From the NCBI GenBank assembly GCA_041658785.1, contig JBAZZL010000001.1, forward strand, positions 5,478-69,477: a DNA stretch of 64,000 nucleotides, written 5' to 3'. This stretch comes from Patescibacteria group bacterium. GTDB lineage: Bacteria; Patescibacteriota; Patescibacteriia; Magasanikbacterales; UBA922. Every line of letters begins with the position of its first letter. The first letter of the stretch is position 1. A program made the position numbers and the translations under genes. Shown piece by piece: positions 9,020 through 42,432 of the stretch. Under the pieces are notes generated by a model. It worked only from the letters and a program-made list of their open reading frames with translations. It did no database searches and was not told the origin of the DNA.

Positions 9020-11989
9020 ATGCCATACAACGCCGACCAAAACGAAAAAGAAATTCTTGCGTTTTGGGATAAAAATAAAATTTTTGAAAAATCTATTTCA
9101 GAGCGTCCGGAAAACAAGCCGTACGTGTTTTATGACGGCCCGCCGTTTGCGACCGGGCTGCCTCACTACGGACATATTGTCGCATCATTAATGAAAGATG
9201 TTGTTCCTCGTTACTGGACAATGCGGGGATATAGGGTAGAACGCGTTTGGGGTTGGGATTGTCATGGACTGCCGATTGAAAATATTATTGAAGAAGAACT
9301 TGGGTTGAAGACCAAACAAGATATTGAAAAAATGGGTGTGGCAAAGTTCTGCGATGCTTGTAGAAATACGGTTTTGAAATACGCCGAAGAATGGAAAAAG
9401 ACAATTCACCGCATGGGGCGATGGGTGGATATGGACCATGCTTACCAAACTATGGATTTGGGCTACATGGAAAGCATTTGGTGGGTTTTCAAACAACTTT
9501 GGGAAAAAGATTTGATTTATGAAGGCAGGAAATCCATGCATATTTGCCCGCGCTGTGTTACTCCGCTTTCCAATTTTGAAGTAACGCAGGGGTATAAGGA
9601 TGTGAAGGATATTTCAGTGGTGGTGAAGTTTAAAGTCATAAATCATAAGACTAAAGTCAAAAGTCTAGAGAATTTGGATAATTTATATATTTTAGCCTGG
9701 ACAACCACTCCGTGGACGTTACCGGGAAATGTGTTGCTTGCGGTGGGAAAGAGTATTCAGTATTCAGTAGTGAGTATTGAAGGCGAAGATGGATTGTTTG
9801 TGGTAGCCAAAGATAGAGTGGAGAAAATGATGGGAAATAAGAAATTTGAAATAAGAAATAGTATTTTAGGGAGTAACCTTATTGGATTAGAATACGAGCC
9901 GTTGTTTCCTTATTTCGCCAATACAGAAAATAGCTTTCGCGTGGTAGAAGGCGGAGATTTTATTACTACCGAAGAAGGAACGGGCGTGGTGCATATTGCG
10001 CCGGCTTTTGGTGAGGACGATTATCAAGTAGGTTTGCGAGAAAAGACTGGCTGGGTACAGCACGTAACCATGGAGGGTAAATTTATTCCAGAAGTAACTG
10101 ACTTTGCCGGCAAAGAAGTAAAGCCAAAAGAAGATCCGACAAAAACAGACGTTGAGATTATTAAATGGCTGGCGGCTAATGGCAAATTGTTTGCTAAAGA
10201 AAAAGTTGAACACAGCTACCCGCATTGCTGGCGCTGTGACACCCCGCTTCTCAATTATTCTACCTCCTCGTGGTTTGTAAAAGTGACAGAATTAAAAAAT
10301 GATTTATTAAAAAATAATAAAGATATCAATTGGGTGCCGGCACACATCAAAGACGGCCGGTTTGGATTATGGCTGGAGGGAGCGCGCGATTGGGCGATTT
10401 CGCGCAATCGGTACTGGGGCACTCCATTGCCGGTTTGGAAATGTGAGGAAGATTGTAAAAATGTCGCAGTCGTCGGTTCAGTGGAGGAATTAGAAAAGTT
10501 GACTGGGAAAAAGGTAGACGATTTGCATAAAAATAAAATCGATAACCTAGTTATTAAGTGCGACAAGTGCGATGGGGAGATGAAGCGCATTACCGAGGTG
10601 CTGGACTGCTGGTTTGAATCCGGCTCCATGCCTTATGCCCAGTTTCATTATCCATTTGAAAATAAAGAAAAAGTAGAAGCCGGTTTTCCCGCAGAATTTA
10701 TTGCCGAGGGCCAAGATCAGACGCGCGGCTGGTTTTATACTTTGCATGTCTTGGCCACCGCCCTGACTCGGGGCAAAAAGCCGCCCATTCCAGTGAAAAA
10801 AATGAGTTCGTCATTCAAGAATGTGATTGTGAATGGCATCGTGCTGGCGGAAGACGGCAAAAAAATGAGCAAACGTTTAAAAAATTATCCTGATCCAACA
10901 GAAGTGCTGGCAAAATATGGAGCCGACGCCATGCGTTATTATTTGGTTTCTTCACCAGTCATGTATGCGGAGAATTTGAATTTTTCTGAGAAAGAAGTGA
11001 GAGAGATGTATAATAAAGTGATGAATATTCTCTGGAACGTATTTGAGTTTTATCAGCTGTTCTCTAAACATGGAACATGTAGCATGAAACATGTAACAAG
11101 TGACAAAAACATCCTTGACCTGTGGATTTTGGCGAAATTACATTTATTGATTAAAGAAGTGACGGAGAGGATGAATGAATATAAACTTGCCGAGGCAAGC
11201 AGGCCGATTGGGGAATTTATTACTGAATTATCGCAGTGGTACGTTCGCCGTTCGCGCGATCGCTTTAAAGGCGAGAATGAAACCGACAAACAAAATGCGC
11301 TCGCCACTTTGCGCGAGGTATTACTGACGCTGTCAAAAGTAATGGCGCCGTTTACGCCGTTTATCGCGGAAAAGATATTTAGGCAAATCATAAATCCTAA
11401 ATCCGAAACCATAAATGACGATTTGTCGGTGCATTTGGAGGCGTGGCCGGAGGCGGACGAGGGGCTGATTGATGAAAAATTATTAAAAGAAATGGCCCAG
11501 GCGAGAAAAATTGTGGAGATGGGGCACGCGTTACGCAAAGAGGCGGGTATTCCGGTAAGGCAACCGCTGGCAGGACTTACGGCTTACGGCTTACGGCTTA
11601 CGGACGAGTTGAAGCAAATCGTAGCTGAAGAGTTGAATGTAAAGAGCGTTGAAATAGGAAATAAAGAAATAGGAAATAATTTTGTAGTTAAAGAAGAAGG
11701 TGGTATTAAGGTGGCTTTGGATACAAAAATTACTGATGAACTCAAAAAAGAAGGTCTGGCGCGCGAGATTGTGCGGGCGATAAATCAGCTGAGGAAAAAA
11801 CAGGGGCTCACCATTCAGGATCAAATTGCTGTTCAGTATCACACTGATGATAAATTATTAAAGCAAGTATTTGCAGAATATGGCGGGAAAATTAAACAGG
11901 GAGTATTGGCAGTGGAGTTGAAAACAGGCGCTGGAGAGGCGGTGGAGATTGGTGGAGTTAAAATTCAATTAAACATCCATAAAGTTTGA
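9020..11989 (+). CDS. ileS: Isoleucyl-tRNA synthetase
   Basis: HYGH (PHYGHIV) and KMSKR (KKMSKRLKNYPDP) class I motifs, editing domain, 989 aa. Carries in-frame tandem repeats at 11576-11603 (cttacgg x4) and 11648-11680 (gaaataggaaataaa). Confidence 0.95.
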   Translation: MPYNADQNEKEILAFWDKNKIFEKSISERPENKPYVFYDGPPFATGLPHYGHIVASLMKDVVPRYWTMRGYRVERVWGWDCHGLPIENIIEEELGLKTKQDIEKMGVAKFCDACRNTVLKYAEEWKKTIHRMGRWVDMDHAYQTMDLGYMESIWWVFKQLWEKDLIYEGRKSMHICPRCVTPLSNFEVTQGYKDVKDISVVVKFKVINHKTKVKSLENLDNLYILAWTTTPWTLPGNVLLAVGKSIQYSVVSIEGEDGLFVVAKDRVEKMMGNKKFEIRNSILGSNLIGLEYEPLFPYFANTENSFRVVEGGDFITTEEGTGVVHIAPAFGEDDYQVGLREKTGWVQHVTMEGKFIPEVTDFAGKEVKPKEDPTKTDVEIIKWLAANGKLFAKEKVEHSYPHCWRCDTPLLNYSTSSWFVKVTELKNDLLKNNKDINWVPAHIKDGRFGLWLEGARDWAISRNRYWGTPLPVWKCEEDCKNVAVVGSVEELEKLTGKKVDDLHKNKIDNLVIKCDKCDGEMKRITEVLDCWFESGSMPYAQFHYPFENKEKVEAGFPAEFIAEGQDQTRGWFYTLHVLATALTRGKKPPIPVKKMSSSFKNVIVNGIVLAEDGKKMSKRLKNYPDPTEVLAKYGADAMRYYLVSSPVMYAENLNFSEKEVREMYNKVMNILWNVFEFYQLFSKHGTCSMKHVTSDKNILDLWILAKLHLLIKEVTERMNEYKLAEASRPIGEFITELSQWYVRRSRDRFKGENETDKQNALATLREVLLTLSKVMAPFTPFIAEKIFRQIINPKSETINDDLSVHLEAWPEADEGLIDEKLLKEMAQARKIVEMGHALRKEAGIPVRQPLAGLTAYGLRLTDELKQIVAEELNVKSVEIGNKEIGNNFVVKEEGGIKVALDTKITDELKKEGLAREIVRAINQLRKKQGLTIQDQIAVQYHTDDKLLKQVFAEYGGKIKQGVLAVELKTGAGEAVEIGGVKIQLNIHKV

Positions 11990-11992
11990 GGC

Positions 11993-12146
11993 ATAGAACT
12001 CACATTCCAAAATCGGACTGAAAAGCCAGACACAACCGATAATCATTTCTGCCGCGAGGACTGTTTGAGTGAGAATACACGAGTTCCGCAGCAAAGAAAT
12101 GATTAGCGGTTGTGCGGCCAGTCCGATTTTGGAATGTGAGTTCTAT
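11993..12146. repeat. 154-bp near-perfect palindrome (28-bp perfect outer arms) downstream of ileS
   Basis: atagaactcacattccaaaatcggactg ... cagtccgattttggaatgtgagttctat, with further complementary inner segments. Confidence 0.85.
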
Positions 12147-12243
12147 ATGTCTAAAACGAACAAAATGGAAGCGAACAAGATGGCGGATCATTAAGTTGAT
12201 GATTTGAAAGTCCGTTGTTTTAATCGCGTGTTGACTATACGTG

Positions 12244-12271
12244 TTGACTATAATTGTATAAGCGGTATAAT
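12244..12271 (+). promoter_or_regulatory. Sigma70-like promoter (TTGACT-N16-TATAAT) upstream of the ATP-grasp gene
   Basis: A direct repeat gtgttgactata x2; the second copy supplies the -35 box, with tataat at 12266-12271. Confidence 0.45.
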
Positions 12272-12433
12272 AATATCTGAACATAAAGTTCCTCTCCGCA
12301 TGCCCCCAGCCTGCGGATTGCGGCCATTACCCATTTTATTTTTATGAACCTTAGCGGTTCGCAAATAGAGGATCCTCTACCAATAAAATTTATCCAACTG
12401 ATTTAAATTATAAACCCAAGCCGATGAGTCAGC

Positions 12434-14917
12434 TTGGTTTTTGTTACTATTATGCCCTCTGATAACCAAATAAAAAATAATGGCAAGCTTCGCGGCAGCA
12501 ATAAATGCTTGGAAGGTAAAACTATCCTTTTAGTAAATACGGGGTCTCCAAAAAAAAAATTTATTATCCAGCGACTCAAAAAACTGGATCTCAATTTGGT
12601 TATTTTGAATAAAAATAAAAATTGGGCGCAGATATATGCTGATCACTGGATTATCGCCGACACCTACAATCACACCGAGTCAATCCAGGCGGTAAGAAAT
12701 TTTATCAAAGAAAATCCGCAGATAAAAATTGAGGGGGCTCTGACTTTTTGGGAGGATGACGTTTTGTTAACTTCAAAAATTATTGACCGATTCAATTTTA
12801 TCGGCATACCATTGAGTGTGGCGAAAAAAGCCAGAAATAAATATAGCTTTCGCGATTTTTGCAAAGCCAACAGCATCAATGCCCCGCGCCACATTTTAGC
12901 CAGGACGGCTGCTGATATTAAATTTGCCTGTGATAATTTTAATTTTCCGGCGGTAGTCAAGCCTGTTTATGGATCTAGCAGCGCTGGTGTCACCAAAGTA
13001 ATGGACAAAGAAAGCCTGTCTCGCGTCTATACGCAGATTAAAAATAGTCTGTCAACGAATGTGGAAAGCGCCCTGACCGACGGCATGGATATTTTGGTAG
13101 AAGAATTTATTGATGGCGATGAGGTTGATATTGATCTGGTTTTACAGAATGGTAAAGTAAAATTTTACTGTATTTCTGACAATTACGACAAAAGCAAGGA
13201 CGAATTTTTTATTGACCGCGGCCAAGCCACGCCTTCCAGCCTGCCAAAAAAAACGCAGGACGAACTTTTTGCCATGACCGAAGAGGTCTTGGAAAAACTG
13301 GGCATCCAAAATGGTATAATTCATTTTGAAGCCAAAACAACTTCCAAAGGACCGTTTCCGATCGAGGTAAATCTCCGCATGGGCGGTGATTATGTTTATT
13401 CATATATAAAAGGCGCTTGGAATATTGACTTAATAGATTGCGCGGCAACAATAGCTTTGGGGAAATATCTGAATATAAAAAAGATAATTGAACCCAAAAA
13501 ATATATTATTGGCTGGGACTTTCATGCCGAAAATTCTGGAATTTTGGTGGAATTGAGCATAGATGAGGAGCTGTACAAAAAACAATATTTTGAAGACTTG
13601 CAGATAAATAAAGAAATCGGCGATGCCGTGCTGGTCCCGCCCGAAGGTTATGATTATCTAGGTTGGATAACAGTTTCCGGCGATAATATTCTTGATACCC
13701 AAGATAATCTGAAAAAAGCTTTGGAGTTGATAAAATACAATGTGGCTCGATTCCACAAAGCATCGTCAATCGGCCGAACTTTGCGCAAATCCAACTCATC
13801 GGTAGCGATGCTCAATAAAAGCATGCTGCTGGGCGCGGCAAAAATTGAAAAAATCAGGCGACTGACAAGCAAAAACCAGAGAAACTTAAAAGTTGGCATT
13901 GCTTGCAACATCTATGATGATTCCACCGGAGAAAAAGTGGAAAAGGAGCTAATGACAGTAGGAAAAAACATTGAGGCTACTCTGAACTCCAGGGGTTATC
14001 GGACAGAATTCTTGGATTTCAACAATATTGACAAAGTCTTTAATGAACTCAAGCGAAGCGATATTGATTTGGTGTTTAATGTCTGCGAAAGAATAAACGA
14101 CTCCAGCCTGCTTGAACCACACGTTGCCGCGTTGCTGGATATTCTGCAAGTGCCATATACCGGGTCCAATCCTTTCACATTGGGGCTCTGCATAGATAAA
14201 ATTAGAGTCAAAAAACTTTTGGCTTATCACAACATCCCAACACCTGATTGGGACTATGCTTATACGGTGGATGATAAAATCAGAAATGATCTGGAATATC
14301 CGTTGATTGTAAAACCAGCGAACACGGACAATTCAATCGGCATAACCAATGAATCGGTGGTCGTTGATGAGCCGGGACTCAAAAAACAAATAAAAAAGAT
14401 TATAATTGATCTAAACAGTCCGGCTTTGATTGAAGAATATATCGAAGGCGACGAGTACGATGTTCCCATTCTGGGCAGCGATGAAAATGATTTGCGAGTC
14501 ATGCCATTGGTTCGTTCAATTTTTGACCGCATGCCGAAAGGAAAGTGGCATATTTTTTCTTATGATTCAAAGTATGGCGAAAAGGATTTCAAAAATTCTG
14601 GAATCACGCAACAATACCCGGCCAAAGGCGTAAACAAAAAATTGATTTCCCTGATTACCGAAATTTCTCTTGATACTTACAATATTTTGGACTGCCATGA
14701 CTACGGCCGGATAGAGGTAAGAGTTGATGAAAATGACAACCCCTATGTGCTTGAGTTGAATCCAAATCCTTCTATTAATATTGGCAACTGTCTGCCGAAA
14801 GCGGCCGAACTAGCTGGCATGGATTATGGTGATTTTATAGAAGAAATAATTAGAATGAGCATCAAAAGGTATAAAAATCGCCCTCCCTATTATCATTTAC
14901 AAGGCGGCATAATATAA
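12434..14917 (+). CDS. Tandem ATP-grasp ligase (two D-Ala-D-Ala-ligase-like ATP-grasp modules in one polypeptide)
   Basis: Module 1: FPAVVKPVYGSSSAGVTKV, EEFIDGDEVDIDLV, IIHFEAKTT...EVNLRMGG. Module 2: YPLIVKPANTDNSIGIT, IEEYIEGDEYDVPILG, DYGRIEVRVDENDNPYVLELNPNPSI. A hairpin plus T-run (12415-12445) overlaps the predicted start; an alternative start is at 12452. Confidence 0.7.
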   Translation: MVFVTIMPSDNQIKNNGKLRGSNKCLEGKTILLVNTGSPKKKFIIQRLKKLDLNLVILNKNKNWAQIYADHWIIADTYNHTESIQAVRNFIKENPQIKIEGALTFWEDDVLLTSKIIDRFNFIGIPLSVAKKARNKYSFRDFCKANSINAPRHILARTAADIKFACDNFNFPAVVKPVYGSSSAGVTKVMDKESLSRVYTQIKNSLSTNVESALTDGMDILVEEFIDGDEVDIDLVLQNGKVKFYCISDNYDKSKDEFFIDRGQATPSSLPKKTQDELFAMTEEVLEKLGIQNGIIHFEAKTTSKGPFPIEVNLRMGGDYVYSYIKGAWNIDLIDCAATIALGKYLNIKKIIEPKKYIIGWDFHAENSGILVELSIDEELYKKQYFEDLQINKEIGDAVLVPPEGYDYLGWITVSGDNILDTQDNLKKALELIKYNVARFHKASSIGRTLRKSNSSVAMLNKSMLLGAAKIEKIRRLTSKNQRNLKVGIACNIYDDSTGEKVEKELMTVGKNIEATLNSRGYRTEFLDFNNIDKVFNELKRSDIDLVFNVCERINDSSLLEPHVAALLDILQVPYTGSNPFTLGLCIDKIRVKKLLAYHNIPTPDWDYAYTVDDKIRNDLEYPLIVKPANTDNSIGITNESVVVDEPGLKKQIKKIIIDLNSPALIEEYIEGDEYDVPILGSDENDLRVMPLVRSIFDRMPKGKWHIFSYDSKYGEKDFKNSGITQQYPAKGVNKKLISLITEISLDTYNILDCHDYGRIEVRVDENDNPYVLELNPNPSINIGNCLPKAAELAGMDYGDFIEEIIRMSIKRYKNRPPYYHLQGGII

Positions 14918-15081
14918 ATCATCAACTGCGGCGGCTGCTTTGGCCTTGTTTTTTTTGCCGCCAGAACTATGCTGAGCTGCTAGCCGTCGGCTTTTTCGAT
15001 TTTGACGATGGCGCCGGCGGCGGTTTGACTAAAAGCGTAATCTAGGCTAGAATAAGAACAATTTATTATTAACAAATATCT

Positions 15082-16047: not shown

Positions 16048-16209
16048 GGGTGAGGCAGGTGGAATTAAAAGTGTGGGATTGCAAGATACAGTTTTGAAGA
16101 TTGAAAGATTACGATTTTTTGTTGGACAAAGTATTAGGATACAAAATGATCTTTTAATCTTCACTTCGCCAATAATCTTTTAATCTTTTAATCTTCTAAT
16201 TTTTGAACC

Positions 16210-16785
16210 ATGATTTCCTCAATCCGCGGCACAACCGTCGCCAAAACCGCCACCAGCGTTCATATTCAAACCTCCGGCGGTGTTGGCTATGAAATTTCTT
16301 TAACTCCGCTCCACGCGGCGAAGCTGGTTTTGAATAAGGAAGCGGAATTGCCGACTTATTTGCGGGTGACGGAAAGCGCGCTGGATTTGTTCGGTTTTCA
16401 GAATGATGAAGAGAGAGGTTTTTTTATTTTATTGATTTCCGTTTCCGGCGTCGGCCCGAAGACCGCGTTGAACATTTTGTCTTTGGGATCGTTATCGGAA
16501 ATAAAATCCGCCATCGCCCGCGGGGACGCGAAGTATCTTTCGGCGGTCAAGGGAATCGGGAGGAAGACGGCGGAGAGGTTGTGCGTGGAGCTTAAGTCAA
16601 AAATCACGAGGCACGAGGCATACAGCACGACGCAAACGAACGGCGGAGTGCTATCTGAAGTAATAGACGGACTGGTTGCCTTGGGATATTCTCGGGAAGA
16701 GGCGCGGGAGGCGGTCGCGGGGGTGGAGAGCGAAGGGAAGACGACGGAGGGGATTTTGAGAGAAGTTTTGAAGAATAAAAAATGA
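16210..16785 (+). CDS. ruvA: Holliday junction DNA helicase RuvA
   Basis: OB-fold N-terminus, two HhH motifs (LISVSGVGPKTALNIL; LSAVKGIGRKTAERL), C-terminal RuvB-binding domain. Confidence 0.88.
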   Translation: MISSIRGTTVAKTATSVHIQTSGGVGYEISLTPLHAAKLVLNKEAELPTYLRVTESALDLFGFQNDEERGFFILLISVSGVGPKTALNILSLGSLSEIKSAIARGDAKYLSAVKGIGRKTAERLCVELKSKITRHEAYSTTQTNGGVLSEVIDGLVALGYSREEAREAVAGVESEGKTTEGILREVLKNKK

Positions 16786-19477: not shown

Positions 19478-19484
19478 AAAAAAA

Positions 19485-23059: not shown

Positions 23060-23650
23060 TTATATTTTCCCTACCAAATCTGAACCGGGTTTGAGGGTTT
23101 TGCCGCCGGGTTTCCAGCTGGCGGGGCAAACAAGACCGGGGTGTTCTCGGACAAATTGCGAGGCTTGGAGTTTACGAAAAATCTCTTCTATGTTGCGGCC
23201 GATAGAATTATCATGGATATCATAAGATTTGATCGTCTGATCAGGATCAACAATAAAAGTGGCGCGAAGAGACAGGCCTTCTTCTTCTATAAAGGTGCCG
23301 AGAGCATGGCAAAATTTTCCGGTTGGATCCGCTAACATCGGGTACTTTACCTTTTTAACGGACGGAGAAGTATCATGCCATGCTTTATGAGCAAAGGCAG
23401 TGTCGGTGCTGATACTGACGATTTCGGCGCCGATTTTCTTGAATTTACTATAATATTCAGCCGCGTCTTCAAGTTCAGTCGGACAGACAAAAGTGAAGTC
23501 GGCTGGATAAAAAAGAAGCACAAGCCATTTCCCTTTATAATCGCCCATGGTGATATCTTTGATATCATTTTGGTAATAAGCGGAAAGAGTAAACTTTGGG
23601 AGCTTCTTGCCAATTAGTGGATAAATGAGATTGTTGTTATCTTCAATCAT
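23060..23650 (-). CDS. Peroxiredoxin (AhpC/TSA 2-Cys family)
   Basis: Peroxidatic Cys motif FTFVCPTE and resolving Cys near the C-terminus (GLVCPASW); 196 aa. Confidence 0.9.
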   Translation of the reverse strand: MIEDNNNLIYPLIGKKLPKFTLSAYYQNDIKDITMGDYKGKWLVLLFYPADFTFVCPTELEDAAEYYSKFKKIGAEIVSISTDTAFAHKAWHDTSPSVKKVKYPMLADPTGKFCHALGTFIEEEGLSLRATFIVDPDQTIKSYDIHDNSIGRNIEEIFRKLQASQFVREHPGLVCPASWKPGGKTLKPGSDLVGKI

Positions 23651-24042
23651 ATTTTTAGTAATTAATTTTTTTAATTATATCAGTCGATCTTATTTCAAAA
23701 TAATGGATATTATTCCATCGCCACGCCGAAAAACTTGTTGAATTCCATAAGAAAAACAATCATGAAATCCCGCCAAGCTGGGCTTTATCCAACGATTTTT
23801 ATGAAATAAAATCATTGACGGAAAAAATTGGAACGAACCGCCGTTTGCTTTCCCGAAAAACTGAATTTGAATTTGTCCGCCCCTTTGATTTAATTCCGAA
23901 ATATTTACCCGCCGTAGCTGAAAAAGCGCAGGAGGGCAAGGCTTTCTGCGAAGCGAGACCCGCTCCCGCATCGCCGTGCGGGATAAACTCCGGCGGGGCG
24001 AGCGAGCAACCAAATGCTCCTCAATTTTCAAAATGTCTATCT

Positions 24043-24119: not shown

Positions 24120-24206
24120 AAAACATGATGCACGAGGCACGTAGCACGACTCATTTTGGACAATTTGTCGTGCGTCGTGCTGTGTGCATCGTGCCTCGTG
24201 AATAAG
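24120..24206. repeat. MITE-like family 2 (catgatgcacgaggcacg ... ttggacaatt ... cgtgcctcgtg), between tRNA-Pro and tRNA-Phe
   Basis: Imperfect inverted repeat around the ttggacaatt core. Homologous copies at 50968-51059 and 52640-52790, partial at 51136-51175 and 43640-43680. Confidence 0.65.
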
Positions 24207-24278
24207 TGCCGAGGGCGAGGATCGAACTCGCGACGCAAGGATTTTCAGTCCTTCGCTCTACCACTGAGCTACCTCGGC
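24207..24278 (-). tRNA. tRNA-Phe (GAA)
   Basis: Reverse complement GCCGAGGTAGCTCAGTGGTAGAGC...anticodon loop CTGAAAA...GAGTTCGATCCTCGCCCTCGGCA. Confidence 0.85.
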
Positions 24279-24279
24279 G

Positions 24280-24358
24280 TTACGGATTACGGATAATCCT
24301 GATTTACGGATATGGCGAAATTGTCATCCGTAAATCAGGATTATCCGTAATCCGTAAG
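24280..24358. repeat. Perfect 35-bp-arm hairpin (ttacggattacggataatcctgatttacggat ... atccgtaaatcaggattatccgtaatccgtaa) between tRNA-Phe and tRNA-Ala
   Basis: Read directly. Contains the ttacgg/aatccgta motif that recurs at 11576, 26300 and 46160. Confidence 0.85.
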
Positions 24359-24361
24359 CAG

Positions 24362-24434
24362 TGGACCCGAGCGGATTCGAACCGCTGACCTCCGCGATGC
24401 AAACGCGGCGCTATACCAGCTAAGCTACGGGCCC
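24362..24434 (-). tRNA. tRNA-Ala (TGC)
   Basis: Reverse complement GGGCCCGTAGCTTAGCTGGTATAGCGCCGCGTTTGCATCGCGG...GGTTCGAATCCGCTCGGGTCCA; G3:U70 present. Confidence 0.85.
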
Positions 24435-31657: not shown

Positions 31658-31690
31658 AACCCCGGAGTCCGGGGCTTTTTTATTATCTTG
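31658..31690. terminator. Bidirectional rho-independent terminator (ccccggagtccgggg flanked by A/T runs) at the rpmH 3' end
   Basis: aaaaaccccggagtccggggcttttttatt. Confidence 0.7.
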
Positions 31691-32139: not shown

Positions 32140-33258
32140 TTACTGCCTGATTGGCATTATAATATATAAATAATCCTCTTTTCCTTTTTCTTTTATTAAG
32201 CATGGGGCGTCCGCGCTGTTCATCAACAATTCAATATCACCGCTCATCTGCAGCAAGCCGTCAAGAAGATACCGGTGATTGAGTAGAATTGAATTCTCTT
32301 CGCCCGTTACATCAGCATCAATTTCTGAACTATGTTCTCCTTTTTGCGTGCTCATAGAAGAAATACCAACAGTATTATTTGACGCGTTAAAATCAAAAGA
32401 AACAGCATTCACTCCTGCGGTAGTAAACAAACTGGCGGCCTTTATTTTGTTTATCATTACTTCTAAAGGAAAAGTCGCTGTTGTTTTGAAAGCTGCTGGA
32501 ATTATCTGCGTGTAATCTGGGTACTTTCCATCAATCAGCCTGGTGCTAAATTCGTAATTATCATATTGAAAGAGAAGTTGTGTATTGCTGATCAAAACAC
32601 GCGCCTGTATTTCATCATTCTTTTTTTCCAAACCAAGCAACCTCGCCATTTCATACGCTGCGCGAGCAGGCACTATGCAATTACACCCATCTTCTCCTTG
32701 CGCTACAGATACTTTTTTTTCCGCCAGACGATAAGAGTCTGTTGCCGCCAAAACCAACCCGCGGTATCTCTCGGTAAAAAATGAAAAGTTGACGCCTGAC
32801 AACTCAGGTCTTATTTCATTTTTTGCGGCGGCTATCGCTGTTTGAGACAGCGCCTGCCGGAATGGTTCTCCCAACAACAGATAAATGTGCGACGCTTCCA
32901 CCTCTGGCAATATGGGGAATTCATCCGCGGGTGTTCCTTTTATTTTTGTGCTTGAATTCCCGCAAGATACTTTTAATTCGTTTTCTTTTAAACTTATTTC
33001 AACCTGATCTTCTGTGAGCAGGTGAATATAATCACTCAATGTCTTTGCTGGCGCGGTAAATGTCCCTGCCTCTTCTATTTTTGCCCTCAGGTTTGCTTTT
33101 ACTGACATTTCCAAATTTGTTGCTACAAATTCAACTTTCGACTCGCTTACAATAATTAAAATATTTACCAAGATTGGCAGATTGACCTGTCTGCCAGCCA
33201 CAGAACTCACAATATCTAGAGTGTGTGACAAATTTTCTCGCGTGCATGTAAATTTCAT
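32140..33258 (-). CDS. dnaN: DNA polymerase III beta sliding clamp
   Basis: 372 aa with the three-domain beta-clamp pattern, directly downstream of dnaA. Confidence 0.9.
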   Translation of the reverse strand: MKFTCTRENLSHTLDIVSSVAGRQVNLPILVNILIIVSESKVEFVATNLEMSVKANLRAKIEEAGTFTAPAKTLSDYIHLLTEDQVEISLKENELKVSCGNSSTKIKGTPADEFPILPEVEASHIYLLLGEPFRQALSQTAIAAAKNEIRPELSGVNFSFFTERYRGLVLAATDSYRLAEKKVSVAQGEDGCNCIVPARAAYEMARLLGLEKKNDEIQARVLISNTQLLFQYDNYEFSTRLIDGKYPDYTQIIPAAFKTTATFPLEVMINKIKAASLFTTAGVNAVSFDFNASNNTVGISSMSTQKGEHSSEIDADVTGEENSILLNHRYLLDGLLQMSGDIELLMNSADAPCLIKEKGKEDYLYIIMPIRQ

Positions 33259-33589
33259 ATTTTAATTATTTAATTTATTTTCTATTATCACTTTCTTTAT
33301 TTATTATTAATAATATTGTTGTGTATTGTAGAGGAGTGGATAGAGTGGATAAAACATGAAATTGCTTTTTATTGAGTCTAAAATTGAAGGTGGCGGACGT
33401 GGTGTGTTTGTGTTTTTTTGTTGATTAATTGTTTATATTTTTTTGTATTATTTTTTGTTTGTGTATAAGGTGTTTTTGATTTTTATATTTTTCAACAGGC
33501 TGGCGGCAGTTTAATTTTTTTTTCAACAATATTATCCACCGATATATTATTTTTTTAAATCAATTCAATCTGCCTGCGCCGCCTTGAAA
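33259..33589. other. Candidate oriC segment (dnaA-dnaN intergenic, AT-rich, DnaA boxes)
   Basis: Near-consensus DnaA boxes gtggataaa (33345-33353), agtggatag (33335-33343) and ttatccacc (33533-33541), in very AT-rich sequence. Confidence 0.6.
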
Positions 33590-38327: not shown

Positions 38328-38345
38328 AGCAAAGGAGTTTCAGTC

Positions 38346-38374
38346 TTGACACAATTGAGGGGATATGGTATAGT
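38346..38374 (+). promoter_or_regulatory. Canonical sigma70 promoter TTGACA-N17-TATAGT for the 3D-domain gene
   Basis: ttgaca 38346-38351 and tatagt 38369-38374. Confidence 0.55.
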
Positions 38375-38492
38375 AGAAGCACCAAAAATATAGTAATAGT
38401 ACCCTGGGTATATTCCTAGGGTATTATATTTGAACGGTATTATTGAATTAAAAAATTGGCTTAATTTAGCCAAAAAAAGTAAATAAGAAAAT

Positions 38493-39029
38493 ATGGCCAT
38501 ATTTAAGCGAAAAATATACCAAAGCATATATGAAGCCTCAATCTCTGTTGTTTTGGTTGTTAGTTTGTCTATATCAATAACTACCCCACAGGTGGTAAAT
38601 GCCGAAACGCAAGAGGATGCAGGGCATGATTTGATGATTTTAAATGTTCCGTTTGAAGCGGAAGAATTAAATACATTTTCAGGAGCTTTTCCTCTTTCGG
38701 CAGACCGAAAGCCAGTAAAAACCATCAAAGCGGTTGCTACTGCTTATACTAGCCATGTTTGGCAAACAGACGATACGCCATGTATTACGGCTAATGGGTT
38801 TGATTTATGCGAGTTTTATGAAAAGAAAGGTTTTGGCAACACCATTGCCTCCAACTTTTTGCCTATGGGGACGCAAGTTCGTTTTCCGGAAATATTTGGT
38901 GACAAGATTTTTGTCGTACGTGACCGGATGAATGCCAGATATGGATATGGCAGAATTGATATCTGGATGCCAGAATTGCCCGAAGCCAAGGTCTTCGGCG
39001 TGAAGCGGTTGGTGATGGAAGTATTTTAA
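38493..39029 (+). CDS. 3D-domain protein (MltA/YuiC-like cell-wall-binding domain)
   Basis: Signal peptide plus a C-terminal 3D domain (...TASG...VAVDP..IPLGT.V...G.....A.DTG..I.G..IDIW...). 178 aa. Confidence 0.65.
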   Translation: MAIFKRKIYQSIYEASISVVLVVSLSISITTPQVVNAETQEDAGHDLMILNVPFEAEELNTFSGAFPLSADRKPVKTIKAVATAYTSHVWQTDDTPCITANGFDLCEFYEKKGFGNTIASNFLPMGTQVRFPEIFGDKIFVVRDRMNARYGYGRIDIWMPELPEAKVFGVKRLVMEVF

Positions 39030-39093
39030 TCATGAGGCAGGATGCACCCTTCGGCTTCGCTCAGGGCAGGCTCCGCACGACTCATAACAGAAT

Positions 39094-39120
39094 AAAAATC
39101 CCCTGATGGGGATTTTTATT
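39094..39120 (+). terminator. Rho-independent terminator (aaaaatcccctgatggggatttttatt)
   Basis: Perfect hairpin followed by a T-run. Confidence 0.75.
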
Positions 39121-39155
39121 GTATTGTGCTGCGTGTATCGTGCACCGTGATTCAG

Positions 39156-39227
39156 AGGTACGGGCGGGAATCGCACCCGCGTATAAAGGTTTTGCAGACC
39201 TTTGCCTTACTGCTTGGCTACCGTACC
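39156..39227 (-). tRNA. tRNA-Cys (GCA)
   Basis: Hand-folded: perfect 7-bp acceptor stem GGTACGG/CCGTACC, 3-bp D-stem, anticodon loop CTGCAAA, discriminator U73 (a Cys identity element). The T-loop TGCGATT is atypical (G55). Confidence 0.6.
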
Positions 39228-39468
39228 GTTTGATTTTAGATTTATGATTTTAGATTTCAGATTTTGTAGACCTTTCTCTGGATTTATCTGCCGCAGTTTT
39301 GTTGGGTGAAGAAATAAACGGAAAACACAAAACAAGAATATCATGTTTCTTGTCTTTTTTCAAGGCTATAAACACTCCCCTATTCTTGACACTATTTTCA
39401 TCCTTTGTTATTATTATAAAAGTATGTTTTGGACGGGGCCGAAGGCCCCTCCATGGAAGGAGGGAAAC

Positions 39469-39594
39469 ATGGAAGTGGTGGGATATGGAGTGGTCGGGTA
39501 CTTGGCTGTTGCCACGCTATTTGCGATCGGCGGTGCGTTGCGGGAAGCCATCTTGCACCATCGGCGGTTGCGAAAGCGGACGAAGATCAAGTAA
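39469..39594 (+). CDS. Small GC-rich ORF (41 aa, one TM helix plus basic tail) with a strong Shine-Dalgarno sequence
   Basis: GGAAGGAGGGAAAC ATG. Peptide MEVVGYGVVGYLAVATLFAIGGALREAILHHRRLRKRTKIK. Followed by the hairpin-plus-T-run gcagccggaggcggctgttttttt. Local GC content is far above the window average. Confidence 0.35.
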   Translation: MEVVGYGVVGYLAVATLFAIGGALREAILHHRRLRKRTKIK

Positions 39595-39714
39595 CCGGCA
39601 GGGACGGTGGGTCTGGACGCCAACAGTCCGGTAACCCGCCCTCCCCAATTTATTTTTATGCAGCCGGAGGCGGCTGTTTTTTTGTTTGCGTAAACATGTT
39701 ACAATCTATGTGAT

Positions 39715-42432
39715 ATGCTAAAAGAGAAACAACGTTTTATCATCATTGACGGCAACGCCATTATCCACCGCGCTTATCACGCCCTGCCGCCCATGACGGC
39801 CAAAGATGGCACCATGGTGAACGCGGTCTATGGCTTTACTTCAATGTTGCTCAAAGTTATTAATGATTTGAAACCCACGCACCTCGCGGTTAGTTTTGAC
39901 GTGGCCGGACCGACGTTTCGCGATAAATTGTACGCGGATTACAAAGCTACGCGCGTGAAAGCCGACCAAGATTTGTATGACCAGATTCCGCTTTGTTATC
40001 AGATTGTGGAAGCGTTTGGGATTCCGATCTATACGAAAGAGGGATTTGAGGCGGATGATGTGATTGGGACGATAACCAAGAAACTGGAAACTGGAAATTT
40101 GAAATTAGATATTGAAGCGATTATTGTGACCGGCGACAAAGATATGTTACAACTCGTTGAAAATGAAAAAGTTGAAGTGTATTTGTTGCGCAAAGGAATG
40201 TCTGATTACCATTTGTTTGATGAGAAAAAAGTAAAGGAAGAGTTTGGTTTTGGACCGGAGATGATAGTAGATTACAAAGCCCTGCGCGGTGACGCATCGG
40301 ATAATATACCGGGGGTGAAAGGGATTGGGGAGAAGACGGCGACGGAGTTGATTACAAAGATTGGGGGGGTTGAAGATATTTACCGAAAGATTGAAAGATT
40401 GAAAGATTATAAGATTAGTGATTCGGTGATTAAAAAATTGGAAGATGGAAAAAGAGATGCGGAGATGAGTAAAAAGTTGGCAACGATTGATACGGACGTG
40501 AAAGGGCTGAAGTTTAGTTTGGATGATTGCGAGACGGGTCGGTTTGACGCGGGGAAGATTGAGGGGATGTTGAAGAAGTTTGAGTTTTTTTCACTGCTTA
40601 AACGTATCCCAGGAGCGAGCGTTGAAAATAAGTTACAAGTTACAAGTTACAAGTTACAGAATGAGAGTAGGAAAAAAATAGACGGCGGCATTGAAATAGA
40701 AATTATTAAGTCAGCCGATGAGGTTAAAAAGTTGGCAAACGAGATTAAAAAAGCCGGAGTTTTTGCGTGTAAAGAAATAGTTAGCGGGAAAAATATTATT
40801 GAAGGAAAATTTGAGGGGCTGGTTTTTGTGGTTGATGGAAATAGTTATTTTGTGGATGGGCGGTTTGACGAATTGGCGGAGATTTTTACTGATCAGAAAA
40901 TTTTACTTATCGGGCACGACCTCAAACAATTAATAAAGGTACTTCAATGTAACAATGAAACAATGAAACAATGTAACAATTTATTTGACACCATGATTGC
41001 TTCCTATGTTTTAAATTCCAGCACCAGAGCCCATGATTTGAAGGCGATTATAATGCGCGAGCTAGGCAAGGATCTGCCGGGAAGTTCTGATCAGGCCAGC
41101 TTGTTTGGAGTGAATCCAAAGATTGCGGCAGAAGAGTTAATTTTGGTTTTGCAAGTTTATCAAAAATATGACAAACAACTTAGTGAGATGGAAGATAAAG
41201 GATTGTTTGAAAAAATAGAAATGGCGCTGATTCCGGTTTTGGCGGAAATGGAATTAAACGGCGTGGCGGTTGATAAGGAGATGCTCGGGCGGCTTTCCAA
41301 AGAAGTGGTCAAAGATATTGACAAAGTTACTAAAAAAATCTGGCAAGAAGCCGGCGAAGAATTTAATGTGTCTTCGCCTGTTCAGTTGCGGGACGTTTTA
41401 TTTGAAAAAATGGGACTGCCGGCGCAAGGAATCAAAAAAGGCAAAACCGGCTATTCCACGGCCTCGCCGGAATTGGAAAAACTGCGGGGCGCGCACCCGA
41501 TTGTTGAATTGATTGAAGAATATCGGGAATTGGAAAAACTGCGCAATACCTATATTGACGTTTTGCCGAATTTAATCAACAAAAAGACCGGTCGCATTCA
41601 CACCACTTTTAATCAGGCAGTAACTACCACCGGCCGACTTTCCAGCTCAGATCCGAATTTACAAAACATTCCCATCAAAACCGAACTGGGGCGGGAAATC
41701 CGCAAAGCGTTTTTGGCGGAAAAAGGATATTGTCTGGTGGTGGCGGATTATTCCCAGATTGAACTGCGCATCGTCGCCTCGCTCGCCGAAGACAAAATTA
41801 TGATGGAGATTTTTGAACGGGGAGAAGACATCCATCAAGCCACCGCGGCGGCCATTAATGGCGTTGGTCTGGACAAAGTAACCAAAGAAATGCGGAGCGC
41901 GGCCAAAGCGGTTAATTTTGGCGTTCTCTACGGCATGGGGTCGTACGGATTATCCTGGCGGGCCGGAATTTCCCAGAGCGAAGCGCGGGAGTTTATTGCC
42001 AAATATTTTGAACAGTTTGCCGGAGTGAAAAAATATCTTGACCAGACGCTTGAATTTGCTAAAAAAGAGGGCTATGTGGAAACCCTGTTCGGCCGGCGGC
42101 GGTATATTCCGGAATTAAAATCCGACAATTTCCAAATGCGAAGCGCGGGCGAGCGAATGGCGATTAATATGCCGATTCAGGGCACGGCCGCGGATTTGAT
42201 GAAGATGGCGATGATTGAGGTGAGCGAAAAGATTAAAAGATTAAAAGATTATAAGATTGGAGAGGTGAAGATTATTTTACAAGTGCATGATGAGTTGGTG
42301 TTGGAGGTGAAGAAGGGGTTGGAAGATGAAATTTCTAAATTAGTAAAAGAAGCGATGGAGGGGGTGGCGAAGTTGCGCGTGCCGATTGGGGTGGATGTGC
42401 GGGTGGGGGCGAGGTGGGGGGAATTAAAATAA
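39715..42432 (+). CDS. polA: DNA polymerase I
   Basis: 5'-3' exonuclease domain (IIDGNAIIHRAYHAL), polymerase motifs A (LVVADYSQIELRI), B (RSAAKAVNFGVLYG) and C (LQVHDELVLEV). In-frame oligonucleotide repeats at 40385-40412, 40632-40659, 40951-40980 and 42226-42257. Confidence 0.95.
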   Translation: MLKEKQRFIIIDGNAIIHRAYHALPPMTAKDGTMVNAVYGFTSMLLKVINDLKPTHLAVSFDVAGPTFRDKLYADYKATRVKADQDLYDQIPLCYQIVEAFGIPIYTKEGFEADDVIGTITKKLETGNLKLDIEAIIVTGDKDMLQLVENEKVEVYLLRKGMSDYHLFDEKKVKEEFGFGPEMIVDYKALRGDASDNIPGVKGIGEKTATELITKIGGVEDIYRKIERLKDYKISDSVIKKLEDGKRDAEMSKKLATIDTDVKGLKFSLDDCETGRFDAGKIEGMLKKFEFFSLLKRIPGASVENKLQVTSYKLQNESRKKIDGGIEIEIIKSADEVKKLANEIKKAGVFACKEIVSGKNIIEGKFEGLVFVVDGNSYFVDGRFDELAEIFTDQKILLIGHDLKQLIKVLQCNNETMKQCNNLFDTMIASYVLNSSTRAHDLKAIIMRELGKDLPGSSDQASLFGVNPKIAAEELILVLQVYQKYDKQLSEMEDKGLFEKIEMALIPVLAEMELNGVAVDKEMLGRLSKEVVKDIDKVTKKIWQEAGEEFNVSSPVQLRDVLFEKMGLPAQGIKKGKTGYSTASPELEKLRGAHPIVELIEEYRELEKLRNTYIDVLPNLINKKTGRIHTTFNQAVTTTGRLSSSDPNLQNIPIKTELGREIRKAFLAEKGYCLVVADYSQIELRIVASLAEDKIMMEIFERGEDIHQATAAAINGVGLDKVTKEMRSAAKAVNFGVLYGMGSYGLSWRAGISQSEAREFIAKYFEQFAGVKKYLDQTLEFAKKEGYVETLFGRRRYIPELKSDNFQMRSAGERMAINMPIQGTAADLMKMAMIEVSEKIKRLKDYKIGEVKIILQVHDELVLEVKKGLEDEISKLVKEAMEGVAKLRVPIGVDVRVGARWGELK

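What the first reader, a model, noticed from the sequence alone, without database searches (positions are those of the whole stretch)
9020..42432. Short tandem oligonucleotide repeats inserted in frame into essential genes (ileS, polA), including the same octapeptide twice in PolA
ileS carries cttacgg x4 (11576-11603, peptide TAYGLRL) and gaaataggaaataaa (11648-11680, EIGNKEIGNN). polA carries gttacaa x4 (40632-40659, VTSYKLQ) and aatgaaaca x2 (40951-40980). It also has two separated copies of aagatt(g/a)aaagattataagatt encoding ERLKDYKI / KRLKDYKI (40385-40412 and 42226-42257). The same heptamers also occur in intergenic DNA (ttacgg at 24281 and 46160; aagatta at 16085-16200). The same simple repeats that litter the spacers have therefore expanded inside conserved enzymes without frameshifting. 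They could be phase-variable linkers, or neutral insertions into surface loops.
Basis: seen in the sequence. Interest (0 to 1): 0.5.

Follow-up and report, generated by a model that had tools for sequence, protein, structure and literature searches.

The report
Old repeat arrays inside ileS and polA
Two housekeeping genes of an uncultured Magasanikbacteria (CPR) bacterium carry runs of about four copies of 7- or 8-base units in frame; these are not recent insertions but old arrays kept at fixed sites, whose units change together, and one of them differs in copy number between near-identical genomes and splits ileS.

Summary
The repeats are real and far beyond chance: six perfect period-7/8 arrays of at least 3 copies against 0.00 expected, and about 26 times the density in 1.36 Mb of unrelated bacterial loci.

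The "insertion" reading mostly fails. In alignments of 33 Magasanikbacteria orthologues, most arrays add no length, and relatives carry the same residues.

DNA from relatives shows concerted evolution. The ileS array is CTTACGG x4 here, CTTACAA x3.9, CTTACGA x4.1 and a decayed version in three other species, always at the same site and length. polA sites carry arrays in three species, sometimes with different units.

Copy number is unstable. Another assembly matches 21.6 kb of the window with no substitutions outside the two arrays, yet has CTTACGG x3. That frameshift splits ileS into 861 and 126 aa. It also has 8 rather than 17 units upstream of efp.

Arrays of at least 3.5 copies inside genes sit almost only in ileS and polA (27, against 1 in about 95 kb of other coding DNA).

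Best reading: self-homogenising slippage arrays tolerated in indel-permissive segments, with selection on frame and length. Adaptive phase variation is not shown. This is a new variant of known heptanucleotide repeats.

The parts
9020..11989 (+). ileS, 989 aa, eukaryote-like (type 2) isoleucyl-tRNA synthetase. It hosts seven period-7/8/15 arrays.
   Evidence: The best solved-structure matches are yeast and human cytoplasmic IleRS. Pfam domains: tRNA-synt_1 12-653, Anticodon_1 700-850, DUF5915 871-989.
11576..11603 (+). CTTACGG x4, encoding LTAYGLRLT (aa 853-861), at the junction between Anticodon_1 and DUF5915.
   Evidence: TRF reports 100% match. Orthologous arrays are CTTACAA x3.9 (L204), TTACGAC x4.1 (L205) and a decayed array (L207), at the same site and length. 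A 3-copy allele in L083 splits the gene. The model places a beta-strand at 850-856 followed by a loop.
11651..11679 (+). GAAATAGGAAATAAA x1.9 (15-mer, in frame), encoding EIGNKEIGNN in a hairpin loop.
   Evidence: L207 has GAGATAGGAGATGAG GAGATAGGAGATAAT (EIGDEEIGDN): most substitutions (at unit positions 3 and 12) appear in both units. The length matches the orthologues.
9631..9665 (+). Degenerate TAAAGTCA-type array, about 4.9 copies (aa 204-216), in a variable loop.
   Evidence: At the same site L204 has AAGATTAA x4.1, encoding KIKRLRDCKIK.
9752..9778 (+). AGTATTC x3.9 (aa 245-253).
   Evidence: There is no length change against most orthologues. The model places a strand at 247-253.
9834..9860 (+). 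GAAATAA x3.9 (aa 272-281).
   Evidence: There is no length change.
11067..11098 (+). AACATGT x4.6 (aa 683-693), in a hypervariable, low-confidence loop.
   Evidence: pLDDT below 50 at 685-693.
11385..11416 (+). AAATCAT-type array x4.6 (aa 789-799). This is the one site where the query is 6-7 aa longer than the commonest orthologue length.
   Evidence: L207 has a period-14 array at the same site.
39715..42432 (+). polA, 905 aa DNA polymerase I. It hosts five arrays.
   Evidence: The AF2 model has mean pLDDT 84.5.
40080..40097 (+). GAAACTG x2.6 (site A, aa 122-128).
   Evidence: The same site carries AAAAGATT x4.1 in L002 and AAGATAC x4.3 in L206.
40385..40416 (+). GAAAGATT x4 (site B), encoding KIERLKDYKI, a short helix at the end of the 5'-nuclease SAM fold.
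   Evidence: L002 has AAAAGATT x4.1 and L206 has AAGTCAA x5.1 at the same site. The model places a helix at 226-232 with pLDDT about 90.
40630..40658 (+). AAGTTAC x4.1 (site C), encoding KLQVTSYKLQ, in the disordered linker between the 5'-nuclease and the exo-like domain.
   Evidence: pLDDT is below 50 at 303-324. L002 has AACAGAAC x4.5 in the same linker.
40945..40980 (+). CAATG(T/A)AA x4.5 (site D), encoding QCNNETMKQCNN, in a loop of the exo-like domain.
   Evidence: L206 has CAATGGAA x3.6 and L002 has GTTACGR x4 at the same site.
42227..42258 (+). AAAAGATT x4 (site E), encoding KIKRLKDYKI, at the end of a long helix of the polymerase domain and the following loop.
   Evidence: The 33-mer GAAAAGATTAAAAGATTAAAAGATTATAAGATT is identical to L002 polA site A.
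16097..16204 (.). Intergenic AAGATT octamer copies in inverted orientation, between a 321-aa ORF and ruvA.
24279..24358 (.). Perfect long hairpin built from TTACGGA units, in the spacer between tRNA-Phe and tRNA-Ala.
46157..46186 (+). Intergenic degenerate CTTAYRR x4.3 array, from the same unit family as the ileS array.
3627..3761 (.). 17 units of AAAGCACT (TAAAGCAC x16.9 by TRF), directly abutting the efp start codon on the minus strand. The copy number varies between assemblies.
   Evidence: L083 has 8 units, including two variant units.

Best explanation
These are members of a lineage-wide class of short tandem-repeat arrays: 7-8 nt units, typically about four units, 28-36 nt in total. They litter this Magasanikbacteria genome.

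Inside genes they survive almost only in ileS and polA, two enzymes that tolerate insertions and deletions. There they lie in or next to variable segments, though several encode modelled secondary-structure elements. They are not recent insertions. They occupy positions and lengths that orthologues also have, and several are shared with related species.

Proposed mechanism, with shown and inferred steps marked:
1. Shown: the arrays are DNA-level entities, not by-products of the peptide sequence.
2. Shown: within each species the units of an array are alike, while arrays at the same site differ between species by the same substitution in every unit. This is concerted evolution.
3. Shown: copy number changes faster than point mutation.
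4. Inferred: homogenisation comes from repeated slipped-strand mispairing, or unequal exchange within the array, that removes and re-duplicates units. Selection keeps the frame and the loop length. An array is therefore self-perpetuating once formed.
5. Inferred: out-of-frame intermediates such as the 3-unit ileS allele are at least transiently viable, which would allow 4 to 3 to 4 cycles.

No function needs to be invoked.
For: Excess over chance and over other bacteria.

No net insertion, and residues shared with orthologues.

Concerted evolution at the DNA level:
- ileS: CTTACGG x4 (window), CTTACAA x3.9 (L204), CTTACGA x4.1 (L205), decayed CTTACAG/CTTATGG/CTTAAAG/CTTACAG (L207).
- polA site D: CAATGWAA (window) against CAATGGAA (L206).
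- polA site B: spacers GA, GA, AT (window) against AA, AA, AT (L002).
- The 15-mer: GAAATAGGAAATAAA (window) against GAGATAGGAGATGAG (L207).

The peptides of P0122 (TYNLQLT) and P0137 (TYDLRLT) were predicted from the heptamer model before the DNA was fetched, and the DNA then confirmed them.

DNA-level conservation beyond the protein: only 4 of 58 Leu columns conserved in four species keep the same codon in all four. Two of those four are the array's TTA and CTT.

Instability:
- L083 has no substitutions against 21.6 kb of the window outside the two arrays.
- It has CTTACGG x3, and 8 rather than 17 octamer units upstream of efp.
- The 3-unit allele yields ORFs of 861 and 126 aa.

Permissiveness:
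- Length SD among about 118 homologues is 17.2 for PolA and 17.0 for IleRS, against 5.8 for GyrA.
- Alignment columns per query residue are 1090/905 and 1162/989, against 861/826.
- Orthologues carry unrelated insertions of 10-40 aa at the same loops.

Heptanucleotide repeats are a known over-represented class in some bacteria, attributed to polymerase slippage (PMC4679880, summarising Mrazek et al. 2007; PMC4692102).
Against: The concentration in ileS and polA is extreme: 27 arrays in 20 kb against 1 in about 95 kb of other coding DNA. Indel tolerance explains this only qualitatively. Large surface proteins in the window (1233 aa and 1606 aa) carry only triplet-compatible repeats.

A sharp mode at about four units is also seen in intergenic arrays. 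A simple slippage model does not predict it.

How an array forms without changing segment length is not explained.

Identical 33-mers at different polA sites in two species hint at copying between sites rather than purely local evolution.

Only one coding array was seen to vary. Four other assemblies showed no array changes over 6-22 kb.
Confidence: 0.6

Rival explanations
1. Adaptive contingency loci. The non-triplet arrays are kept in ileS and polA because gaining or losing one unit reversibly switches these genes off. For ileS, it would toggle between a fused and a split enzyme. Either way this would give a bet-hedging subpopulation, for example dormant or slow-growing cells.
For: - A natural out-of-frame allele is the consensus of one assembly, so it is not immediately lethal.
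- It cuts exactly between Anticodon_1 and DUF5915, and leaves an intact downstream ORF that overlaps the stop codon (TTGA).
- The arrays are retained at the same sites across species, with DNA-level conservation.
- Coding arrays sit almost exclusively in these two genes.
Against: - Both genes are normally essential. Known phase-variable genes are mostly surface or restriction-modification genes (PMC2651432, PMC11868660).
- The arrays are short, at four units.
- Only one variant was seen, and reversibility was not shown.
- No variation was seen at the polA arrays in the one other assembly that covers four of the five.
- Self-perpetuating neutral arrays explain the retention equally well.
Confidence: 0.15
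2. Copying between sites. Arrays of about 30 nt spread by short-patch ectopic gene conversion or template switching, from other arrays (including intergenic ones) into sequences that already share flanking microhomology. This would replace the resident sequence without changing its length.
For: - There is no net length change at most sites.
- The same unit families occur in intergenic and coding arrays.
- An identical 33-mer sits at polA site E in the window and at site A in L002. AAGATTAA x4.1 also occurs in the ileS of L204.
- Orthologues without an array at the ileS site carry L-T ... L-T seven codons apart (for example QLAINNEQLT). If encoded as CTTAC, these could provide anchors 21 nt apart. 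This is an inference.
Against: - The shared TAT variant in the AAGATT arrays can instead be explained by avoidance of the in-frame TAA stop that a perfect array would create.
- Lineage-specific unit variants homogenised within a single array point to local processes.
- No donor-recipient pair was demonstrated.
- AAGATTNN arrays with many spacer variants occur widely in metagenomes, so recurrence of one unit is weak evidence.
Confidence: 0.12
3. Protein-level selection only. The peptides (for example an amphipathic KIKRLKDYKI helix) are what is conserved, and the DNA periodicity is incidental to codon usage.
For: - KI.RLKD.KI-like residues recur at polA site B in many orthologues, and partly in Taq polymerase.
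- The segments have conserved length.
Against: - The period is 7 or 8 nt, so each unit is read in a different frame.
- Leu codons in the array are identical in four species, against 7% of Leu columns gene-wide.
- Substitutions between species hit every unit of an array together, and change amino acids accordingly.
- The same units form arrays in non-coding DNA.
Confidence: 0.05
4. Assembly or sequencing artefact.
For: The window comes from a metagenome assembly. The efp-upstream array, at 135 nt, is close to the assembler's k-mer size, so its length could be misassembled.
Against: - The window sequence from 14,545 to 42,010, including the intergenic arrays there and four of the five polA arrays, recurs without array changes in JGI, ENA and Logan assemblies.
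- The full-length IleRS sequence is on record from NCBI, JGI, Logan and ENA.
- Orthologous arrays occur in other species from other studies.
- The 28-nt arrays are far shorter than a read.
Confidence: 0.02

Closest known systems
Over-represented heptanucleotide simple sequence repeats of bacteria: the long SSRs of Mrazek et al. 2007, cyanobacterial STRR, TAACTGA repeats of Beggiatoaceae (PMC4679880), and GGGNATC repeats of Xanthomonas and Nostoc (PMC4692102)
   Same: - Tandem 7-nt (here also 8-nt) units, far more frequent than chance in particular lineages.
- Inverted pairs that form hairpins in spacers.
- A marked preference for four units was also reported for GGGNATC (PMC4692102).
- Slippage is the proposed origin.
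   Different: - The known cases are dominated by one unit per genome and are mostly intergenic. Non-triplet units are reported as rare in coding DNA.
- Here many different units occur. The arrays sit in frame inside two housekeeping genes, at conserved sites, with concerted evolution across species.
- The four-unit preference cannot be explained by G-quadruplexes, because the units are A/T-rich.
SSR contingency loci (phase variation) of Haemophilus, Neisseria, Campylobacter and Mycoplasma (PMC2651432, PMC11868660)
   Same: - A non-triplet tandem repeat inside an ORF, or between promoter and start codon.
- Copy number differs between otherwise identical genomes, and a one-unit change shifts the frame.
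   Different: - The known loci have many copies of 1-5 nt units, and control surface or restriction-modification genes.
- Here there are four copies of 7-8 nt units in ileS and polA.
- Reversibility and phenotype are unknown.
Rickettsia palindromic elements inserted in frame into protein-coding genes (Ogata et al. 2000; cited from memory, not checked here)
   Same: Repetitive DNA shared with intergenic regions lies in frame in essential genes, at structurally permissive places.
   Different: - RPEs are palindromic dispersed elements of about 100-150 bp that add residues.
- The arrays here are tandem repeats of about 30 nt that add no net length at most sites.
- Some orthologues (P0003, P0140, P0138, P0059) do carry RPE-like extra peptides at the same loops.
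Concerted evolution of tandem arrays ("molecular drive", as in minisatellites and rDNA; general knowledge)
   Same: Units within an array are more alike than orthologous units are between species.
   Different: The scale (four units of 7 nt) and the setting (inside a reading frame whose period does not match the codon) are unusual.

Membership tests
Over-represented bacterial heptanucleotide-class SSRs | Head-to-tail copies of a 5-11 nt unit | tested here: met
   TRF rows. Perfect arrays.
Over-represented bacterial heptanucleotide-class SSRs | A frequency far above what composition predicts, specific to the lineage | tested here: met
   - 6 arrays against 0.00 expected.
- 16 arrays against 0.61 per 64 kb in unrelated loci.
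- Relatives L002 and L204-L207 are also rich in arrays.
SSR contingency locus (phase variation) | A repeat inside an ORF or promoter whose unit length is not a multiple of three | tested here: met
SSR contingency locus (phase variation) | Copy-number polymorphism among near-identical genomes | tested here: met
   - ileS has 3 or 4 units, and the efp-upstream array has 8 or 17.
- No variation was seen at the other arrays covered by other assemblies.
SSR contingency locus (phase variation) | Reversible on/off switching with a selectable phenotype | not testable with these tools
   This needs read-level allele frequencies, time series or culture.
   The lengths are equal at 11576, 11651, 9752, 9834, 40385 and 42227. 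Site 40945 adds at most 1-2 aa. Only 11385-11416 shows 6-7 extra residues.
   Shared peptides: TAYGLKLT, TTYNLQLT, TTYDLRLT, KINRLKDYKI, KIKRLKDYKI and NNGTMKQC.
RPE/MITE-like mobile element in coding DNA | A dispersed element with terminal inverted repeats or a palindrome, whose insertion adds its own length | tested here: not met
   The arrays are direct tandem repeats of 28-36 nt, with no inverted ends and no added length.

The most novel reading that the evidence does not exclude
The arrays are maintained because they make ileS and polA phase-variable. Slippage by one unit would reversibly break or split a core housekeeping enzyme: IleRS would be cut into a catalytic/anticodon fragment and a separately translated C-terminal domain. 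This would give an episymbiotic CPR bacterium a heritable, reversible switch into a slow-growing or dormant state.
Probability: 0.1. Interest if true: 0.8.

Novelty: new variant of a known kind. Interest (0 to 1): 0.5.

Why it matters
Non-triplet tandem repeats are expected to be purged from essential genes. Here they persist in frame at fixed sites across species, and their units change together. This is a compact natural example of concerted evolution acting inside a reading frame.

The arrays also show that part of what looks like lineage-specific "protein sequence" in CPR enzymes is dictated by DNA repeat dynamics.

The 3-unit ileS allele shows that these arrays generate frameshifts in housekeeping genes on very short time scales. 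This matters in two ways:
- For annotation: apparent pseudogenes and split genes in CPR metagenome-assembled genomes may be repeat-length variants.
- As a hypothesis that metagenomic reads can test directly: that phase variation reaches core metabolism in these organisms.

Tried and rejected
1. The related-loci scan of genome contigs with the PolA alignment picked universal PolA motifs. It returned 80 loci of which 79 are from other phyla (L003 is a distant Patescibacteria genome). They were useful only as a negative control.

Most were non-coding arrays with many spacer variants, from many kinds of sample. It says nothing about taxon or mobility. The few coding cases were not followed up and add nothing to the question.

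3. The idea that four units reflects a frame rule (one original unit plus three added) was rejected. Intergenic arrays show the same four-unit mode, and the sites have no added length.

4. Hierarchical duplication (1 to 2 to 4 units, giving an ABAB pattern) is inconclusive. Identity at lag 2p exceeded identity at lag p in 17 arrays, was lower in 9 and equal in 9. The high identity at lag 3p is probably an artefact of how TRF sets array ends.

5. Purine loading or Lys/Glu content does not explain why ileS and polA are special. They are not outliers among the window's genes.

6. Whether the 126-aa ORF of the split allele can be translated could not be judged from a ribosome-binding site, because the genes here largely lack Shine-Dalgarno motifs.

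7. Literature searches found no report of such arrays in Patescibacteria.
Full report
**What is there**

The window comes from a Candidatus Magasanikbacteria (CPR/Patescibacteria) genome. The best non-self PolA and IleRS hits are Magasanikbacteria MAG proteins at 60-77% identity. It is identical, over the 21.7 kb compared, to ENA contig ERZ27247322 k141_305148 (125,764 bp).

- ORF 9020-11989 is a eukaryote-like (type 2) IleRS.
- ORF 39715-42432 is DNA polymerase I.

Two corrections apply:
- The 40951-40980 repeat is an 8-mer array, CAATG(T/A)AA x4.5, at 40945-40980.
- The array near 46160 is a degenerate CTTAYRR array.

TRF also finds five further period-7/8 arrays in ileS and one more in polA.

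**Is it more than chance?**

Yes.
- Perfect period-7/8 arrays of at least 3 copies: 6 observed against 0.00 expected in 100 third-order Markov simulations.
- AAGATTNNAAGATT: 9 matches against 0.02 expected.
- TTACGGNTTACGG: 5 matches against 0.24 expected.
- Arrays with TRF score >=40 and period 7-8: 16 in the window, against 0.61 per 64 kb in 1.36 Mb around the polA genes of 80 other bacteria, about 26-fold.

The copy-number distribution has a distinct mode near four units:

| Sequence set | 3-3.4 copies | 3.5-4.9 copies | 5-6.9 copies |
|---|---|---|---|
| Window (64 kb) | 1 | 17 | 0 |
| Five related loci (67.6 kb) | 3 | 17 | 1 |
| Controls (1358 kb) | 9 | 17 | 7 |

The mode holds for intergenic arrays too, so it is not a reading-frame effect.

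**Are they insertions?**

Mostly not. I aligned PolA and IleRS each with 32 Magasanikbacteria orthologues (A1 and A2).

- CTTACGG site (LTAYGLRLT, aa 853-861): no orthologue in the alignment differs in length except one. Among 85 parsed homologues the segment is 9-10 aa in 82.
- KIERLKDYKI (aa 225-234): this is in the shortest length class. It is matched by KINRLKDYKI (P0002), KIKRLKDYKI (P0011), KIERLKDYNI (P0013) and KIEKLKDLKI (P0016). Taq polymerase aligns DRLKP-AI with a single gap.
- C-terminal KIKRLKDYKI: same length as P0003 (KIKRLKIKD), P0009 and P0059. The whole family is about 6 aa longer than Taq here.
- QCNNETMKQCNN: matched by QWNNGTMKQ-C in P0004.
- EIGNKEIGNN: matched by EIGDEEIGDN in P0128.
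- ileS 11385-11416: the only site that looks like a net gain, at 6-7 aa over the commonest length.

Placement on the AF2 models (IleRS mean pLDDT 67 but 80-90 in the C-terminal part; PolA mean pLDDT 84.5):
- CTTACGG array: beta-strand 850-856 plus a loop, just before helix 862-872. Pfam puts this at the junction between Anticodon_1 (700-850) and DUF5915 (871-989).
- polA site B: a confident short helix, 226-232.
- polA site C: the disordered linker, 303-324.
- polA sites D and E: helix ends and loops.

**What they are: old arrays evolving in concert**

From alignment A2 I noticed that several orthologue peptides at the CTTACGG site are exact translations of other variants of the heptamer xCTTACy. 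Read as (xCT)(TAC)(yxC)(TTA)(Cyx)(CTT)(ACy), these give:
- AYGLRLT for x=G, y=G
- TYNLQLT for x=A, y=A
- TYDLRLT for x=A, y=G

I recorded this prediction, then fetched the DNA:

| Locus | Protein | Array at the ileS site |
|---|---|---|
| L204 | P0122 (about 77% aa identity) | CTTACAA x3.9 |
| L205 | P0137 | CTTACGA x4.1 |
| L207 | P0128 | Decayed: CTTACAG CTTATGG CTTAAAG CTTACAG |

All are at the same codons. The array therefore predates these species. Differences between species are the same in every unit of an array.

The same pattern appears elsewhere:
- The 15-mer: GAAATAGGAAATAAA here, GAGATAGGAGATGAG in L207.
- polA site D: CAATGWAA here, CAATGGAA in L206.
- polA site B: spacers GA, GA, AT here; AA, AA, AT in L002.

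Codon usage confirms a DNA-level effect. Of 58 Leu columns conserved in the four IleRS genes, only 4 use the same codon in all four species. Two of those are the array's TTA and CTT.

The peptide signature of the array is restricted to the query and five of its closest relatives. It therefore arose in a subclade, in a segment whose length did not change.

**Recurrent sites, recurrent units**

polA carries arrays at the same protein sites in three species, sometimes with unrelated units:

| Site | Window | L002 | L206 |
|---|---|---|---|
| A | GAAACTG | AAAAGATT | AAGATAC |
| B | GAAAGATT | AAAAGATT | AAGTCAA |
| C | AAGTTAC | AACAGAAC | none found |
| D | CAATGWAA | GTTACGR | CAATGGAA |

The converse also holds: the same unit turns up at different sites and in different genes.
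- The 33-mer GAAAAGATTAAAAGATTAAAAGATTATAAGATT is identical at site E here and at site A in L002.
- AAGATTAA x4.1 sits in the ileS of L204.
- The AAGATT and TTACGG families also form intergenic arrays and hairpins.
- A perfect AAAGATTA array would contain an in-frame TAA in any reading frame once it spans about three units. This explains why the coding copies all carry a deviating unit (GAT TAT).

Orthologues that lack arrays sometimes carry other extra peptides of 10-40 aa at the same loops (P0003, P0012, P0016 and P0059 in PolA; P0140 and P0138 in IleRS). These places accept foreign sequence generally.

**Instability**

P0121 is a 100%-identical IleRS that stops at 861 aa. Its contig (L083; ENA ERZ27249422, 54,307 bp) aligns to window 1-21,612 with no substitutions outside the two arrays. 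The only differences are in those arrays:
- CTTACGG x3 instead of x4. This shifts the frame to ...LTAYGLRTS* and leaves a 126-aa ORF (DUF5915) that overlaps the stop codon.
- 8 rather than 17 octamer units directly upstream of the efp start codon, including two variant units.

The full-length 989-aa protein is on record from NCBI (two accessions), JGI, Logan and ENA. The split form comes from that one assembly only.

Other assemblies cover window 14.5-42 kb. They show at most 1-3 substitutions and no array changes.

Array length therefore changes faster than point mutation, but I saw only two such differences.

**Where the coding arrays are**

Across the window and five related loci, period-7/8 arrays of at least 3.5 copies inside genes number 27 in ileS and polA (seven genes, about 20 kb). 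There is 1 in about 95 kb of other coding DNA, in the ruvA of L204. In the window alone the split is 11 to 0, although the two genes make up about 10% of coding DNA.

Part of the reason is tolerance to insertions and deletions:
- Homologue length SD is 17.2 (PolA) and 17.0 (IleRS), against 5.8 (GyrA).
- The alignments need 185 and 173 extra columns, against 35 for GyrA.

This is not a full explanation. The large surface proteins in the window carry only repeats with periods of 12-48.

**Mechanism**

Shown:
- The arrays are DNA-level entities.
- They are old and positionally stable.
- They are homogenised within arrays.
- Their copy number is labile.

Inferred:
- Slipped-strand mispairing or unequal exchange within an array repeatedly deletes and re-duplicates units.
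- Selection keeps the frame and the segment length.
- Once formed, an array is therefore self-perpetuating.
- Out-of-frame intermediates such as the 3-unit ileS allele may be transiently tolerated.

Not explained:
- How an array first forms without changing segment length.
- Why four units are favoured.
- Why ileS and polA are so strongly preferred.

Short-patch conversion from other arrays would account for the first point and for the identical 33-mers. It remains unproven.

Adaptive phase variation of housekeeping genes is the most exciting reading, and I give it about 0.1-0.15.

**Comparison with known systems**

Over-represented heptanucleotide repeats are known in several bacterial groups and are ascribed to polymerase slippage. 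Non-triplet units are reported to be rare in coding regions (PMC4679880, summarising Mrazek et al. 2007). A four-unit preference was reported for GGGNATC repeats and attributed to G-quadruplexes (PMC4692102). That cannot apply to these A/T-rich units.

SSR contingency loci share the frame-shifting logic but not the gene class or the array size (PMC2651432, PMC11868660).

Rickettsia palindromic elements share the "selfish DNA in essential genes" theme but not the structure (cited from memory).

I found no report of such arrays in Patescibacteria.

**Verdict**

The "insertion" interpretation is mostly refuted, and the "phase-variable" suggestion is partly supported. This is a new variant of a known kind, of moderate interest.

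Noticed in passing
window 3627-3761 (and L083 4673-4744): 17 units of AAAGCACT directly abut the efp start codon on the minus strand. A near-identical genome has 8 units, including two variant units (AAAACATA, AAAACATT). The same unit (AAGCACTA) forms an array upstream of dnaA in another species (L002 3936-3972). This could act as a promoter or 5'-end rheostat.
   Followed up: partly
window 24206-24434: tRNA-Phe and tRNA-Ala (minus strand) are separated by a perfect hairpin of about 32 bp per arm, built from TTACGGA units (24279-24358). It may be a processing or terminator structure made from the same heptamer family as the ileS array.
   Followed up: partly
window 11993-12147; L083 68-222: A 155-nt element lies just downstream of ileS. 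It is itself an imperfect palindrome (76% self-complementary). It recurs inverted at 98.7% identity about 13 kb away, upstream of the window start. One JGI contig would begin about 12,026, just inside this element (computed from its length and end point), so it seems to break assemblies.
   Followed up: partly
upstream of start codons across the window (for example dnaA 34973-34997, rpe 8104-8128, and the ORF at 51994): Most genes lack a Shine-Dalgarno motif. Several have TATAAT only 7-12 nt upstream of the ATG, which suggests leaderless or near-leaderless mRNAs.
   Followed up: no
window 33232-33589: The dnaA-dnaN spacer holds GAGTGGATA x2 (33334-33351), which resembles DnaA boxes, and A/T-rich repeats. 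It is a candidate oriC. Cumulative GC skew does not turn here; it follows gene strand instead.
   Followed up: no
orthologues P0003, P0012, P0016, P0059 (PolA) and P0140, P0138 (IleRS): Extra peptides of 10-40 aa (for example ...CHSERSPDSHQGVVEESL..., ...LDPRLRGDD..., ...PKILKRVQDD...) sit at the same loops that hold arrays here. They look like in-frame translations of dispersed palindromic repeat elements, in the manner of RPEs.
   Followed up: no
window 8109-8208 and 8690-8743: Inverted arrays of 10-mers (AACAAAATTA and ATAATTTTGT) lie between rpe and rpiB. AATTAAACGA x4.5 lies in the divergent rpiB-ileS spacer. L204 has comparable 10/20-mer arrays in the corresponding spacers.
   Followed up: no
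window 44110-44296, 45209-45251, 53994-54098, 57814-57855, 60239-60292: Triplet-compatible repeats (periods 12, 18, 21, 36 and 48) occur in putative surface or large proteins. This contrasts with the non-triplet arrays in ileS and polA.
   Followed up: no
L210 12304-12699 against window about 23,540-23,937: A second contig from sample ERZ27249422 is identical to the window down to 23,937, apart from three substitutions clustered just before that point, and then diverges. This indicates a strain-variable region or rearrangement next to the tRNA cluster.
   Followed up: no
P0187, P0209, P0232: Some related IleRS proteins (1176-1199 aa) are fused to a histidine-phosphatase domain (PF00300).
   Followed up: no
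L008 (Candidatus Methylomirabilis), L003 (another Patescibacteria), L074: Among the 80 control loci, heptamer arrays cluster in a few genomes: five arrays in 9.8 kb of L008, and four in L003, none of them inside polA. Richness in heptamer arrays is lineage-specific, and in these two genomes the arrays lie outside polA.
   Followed up: no
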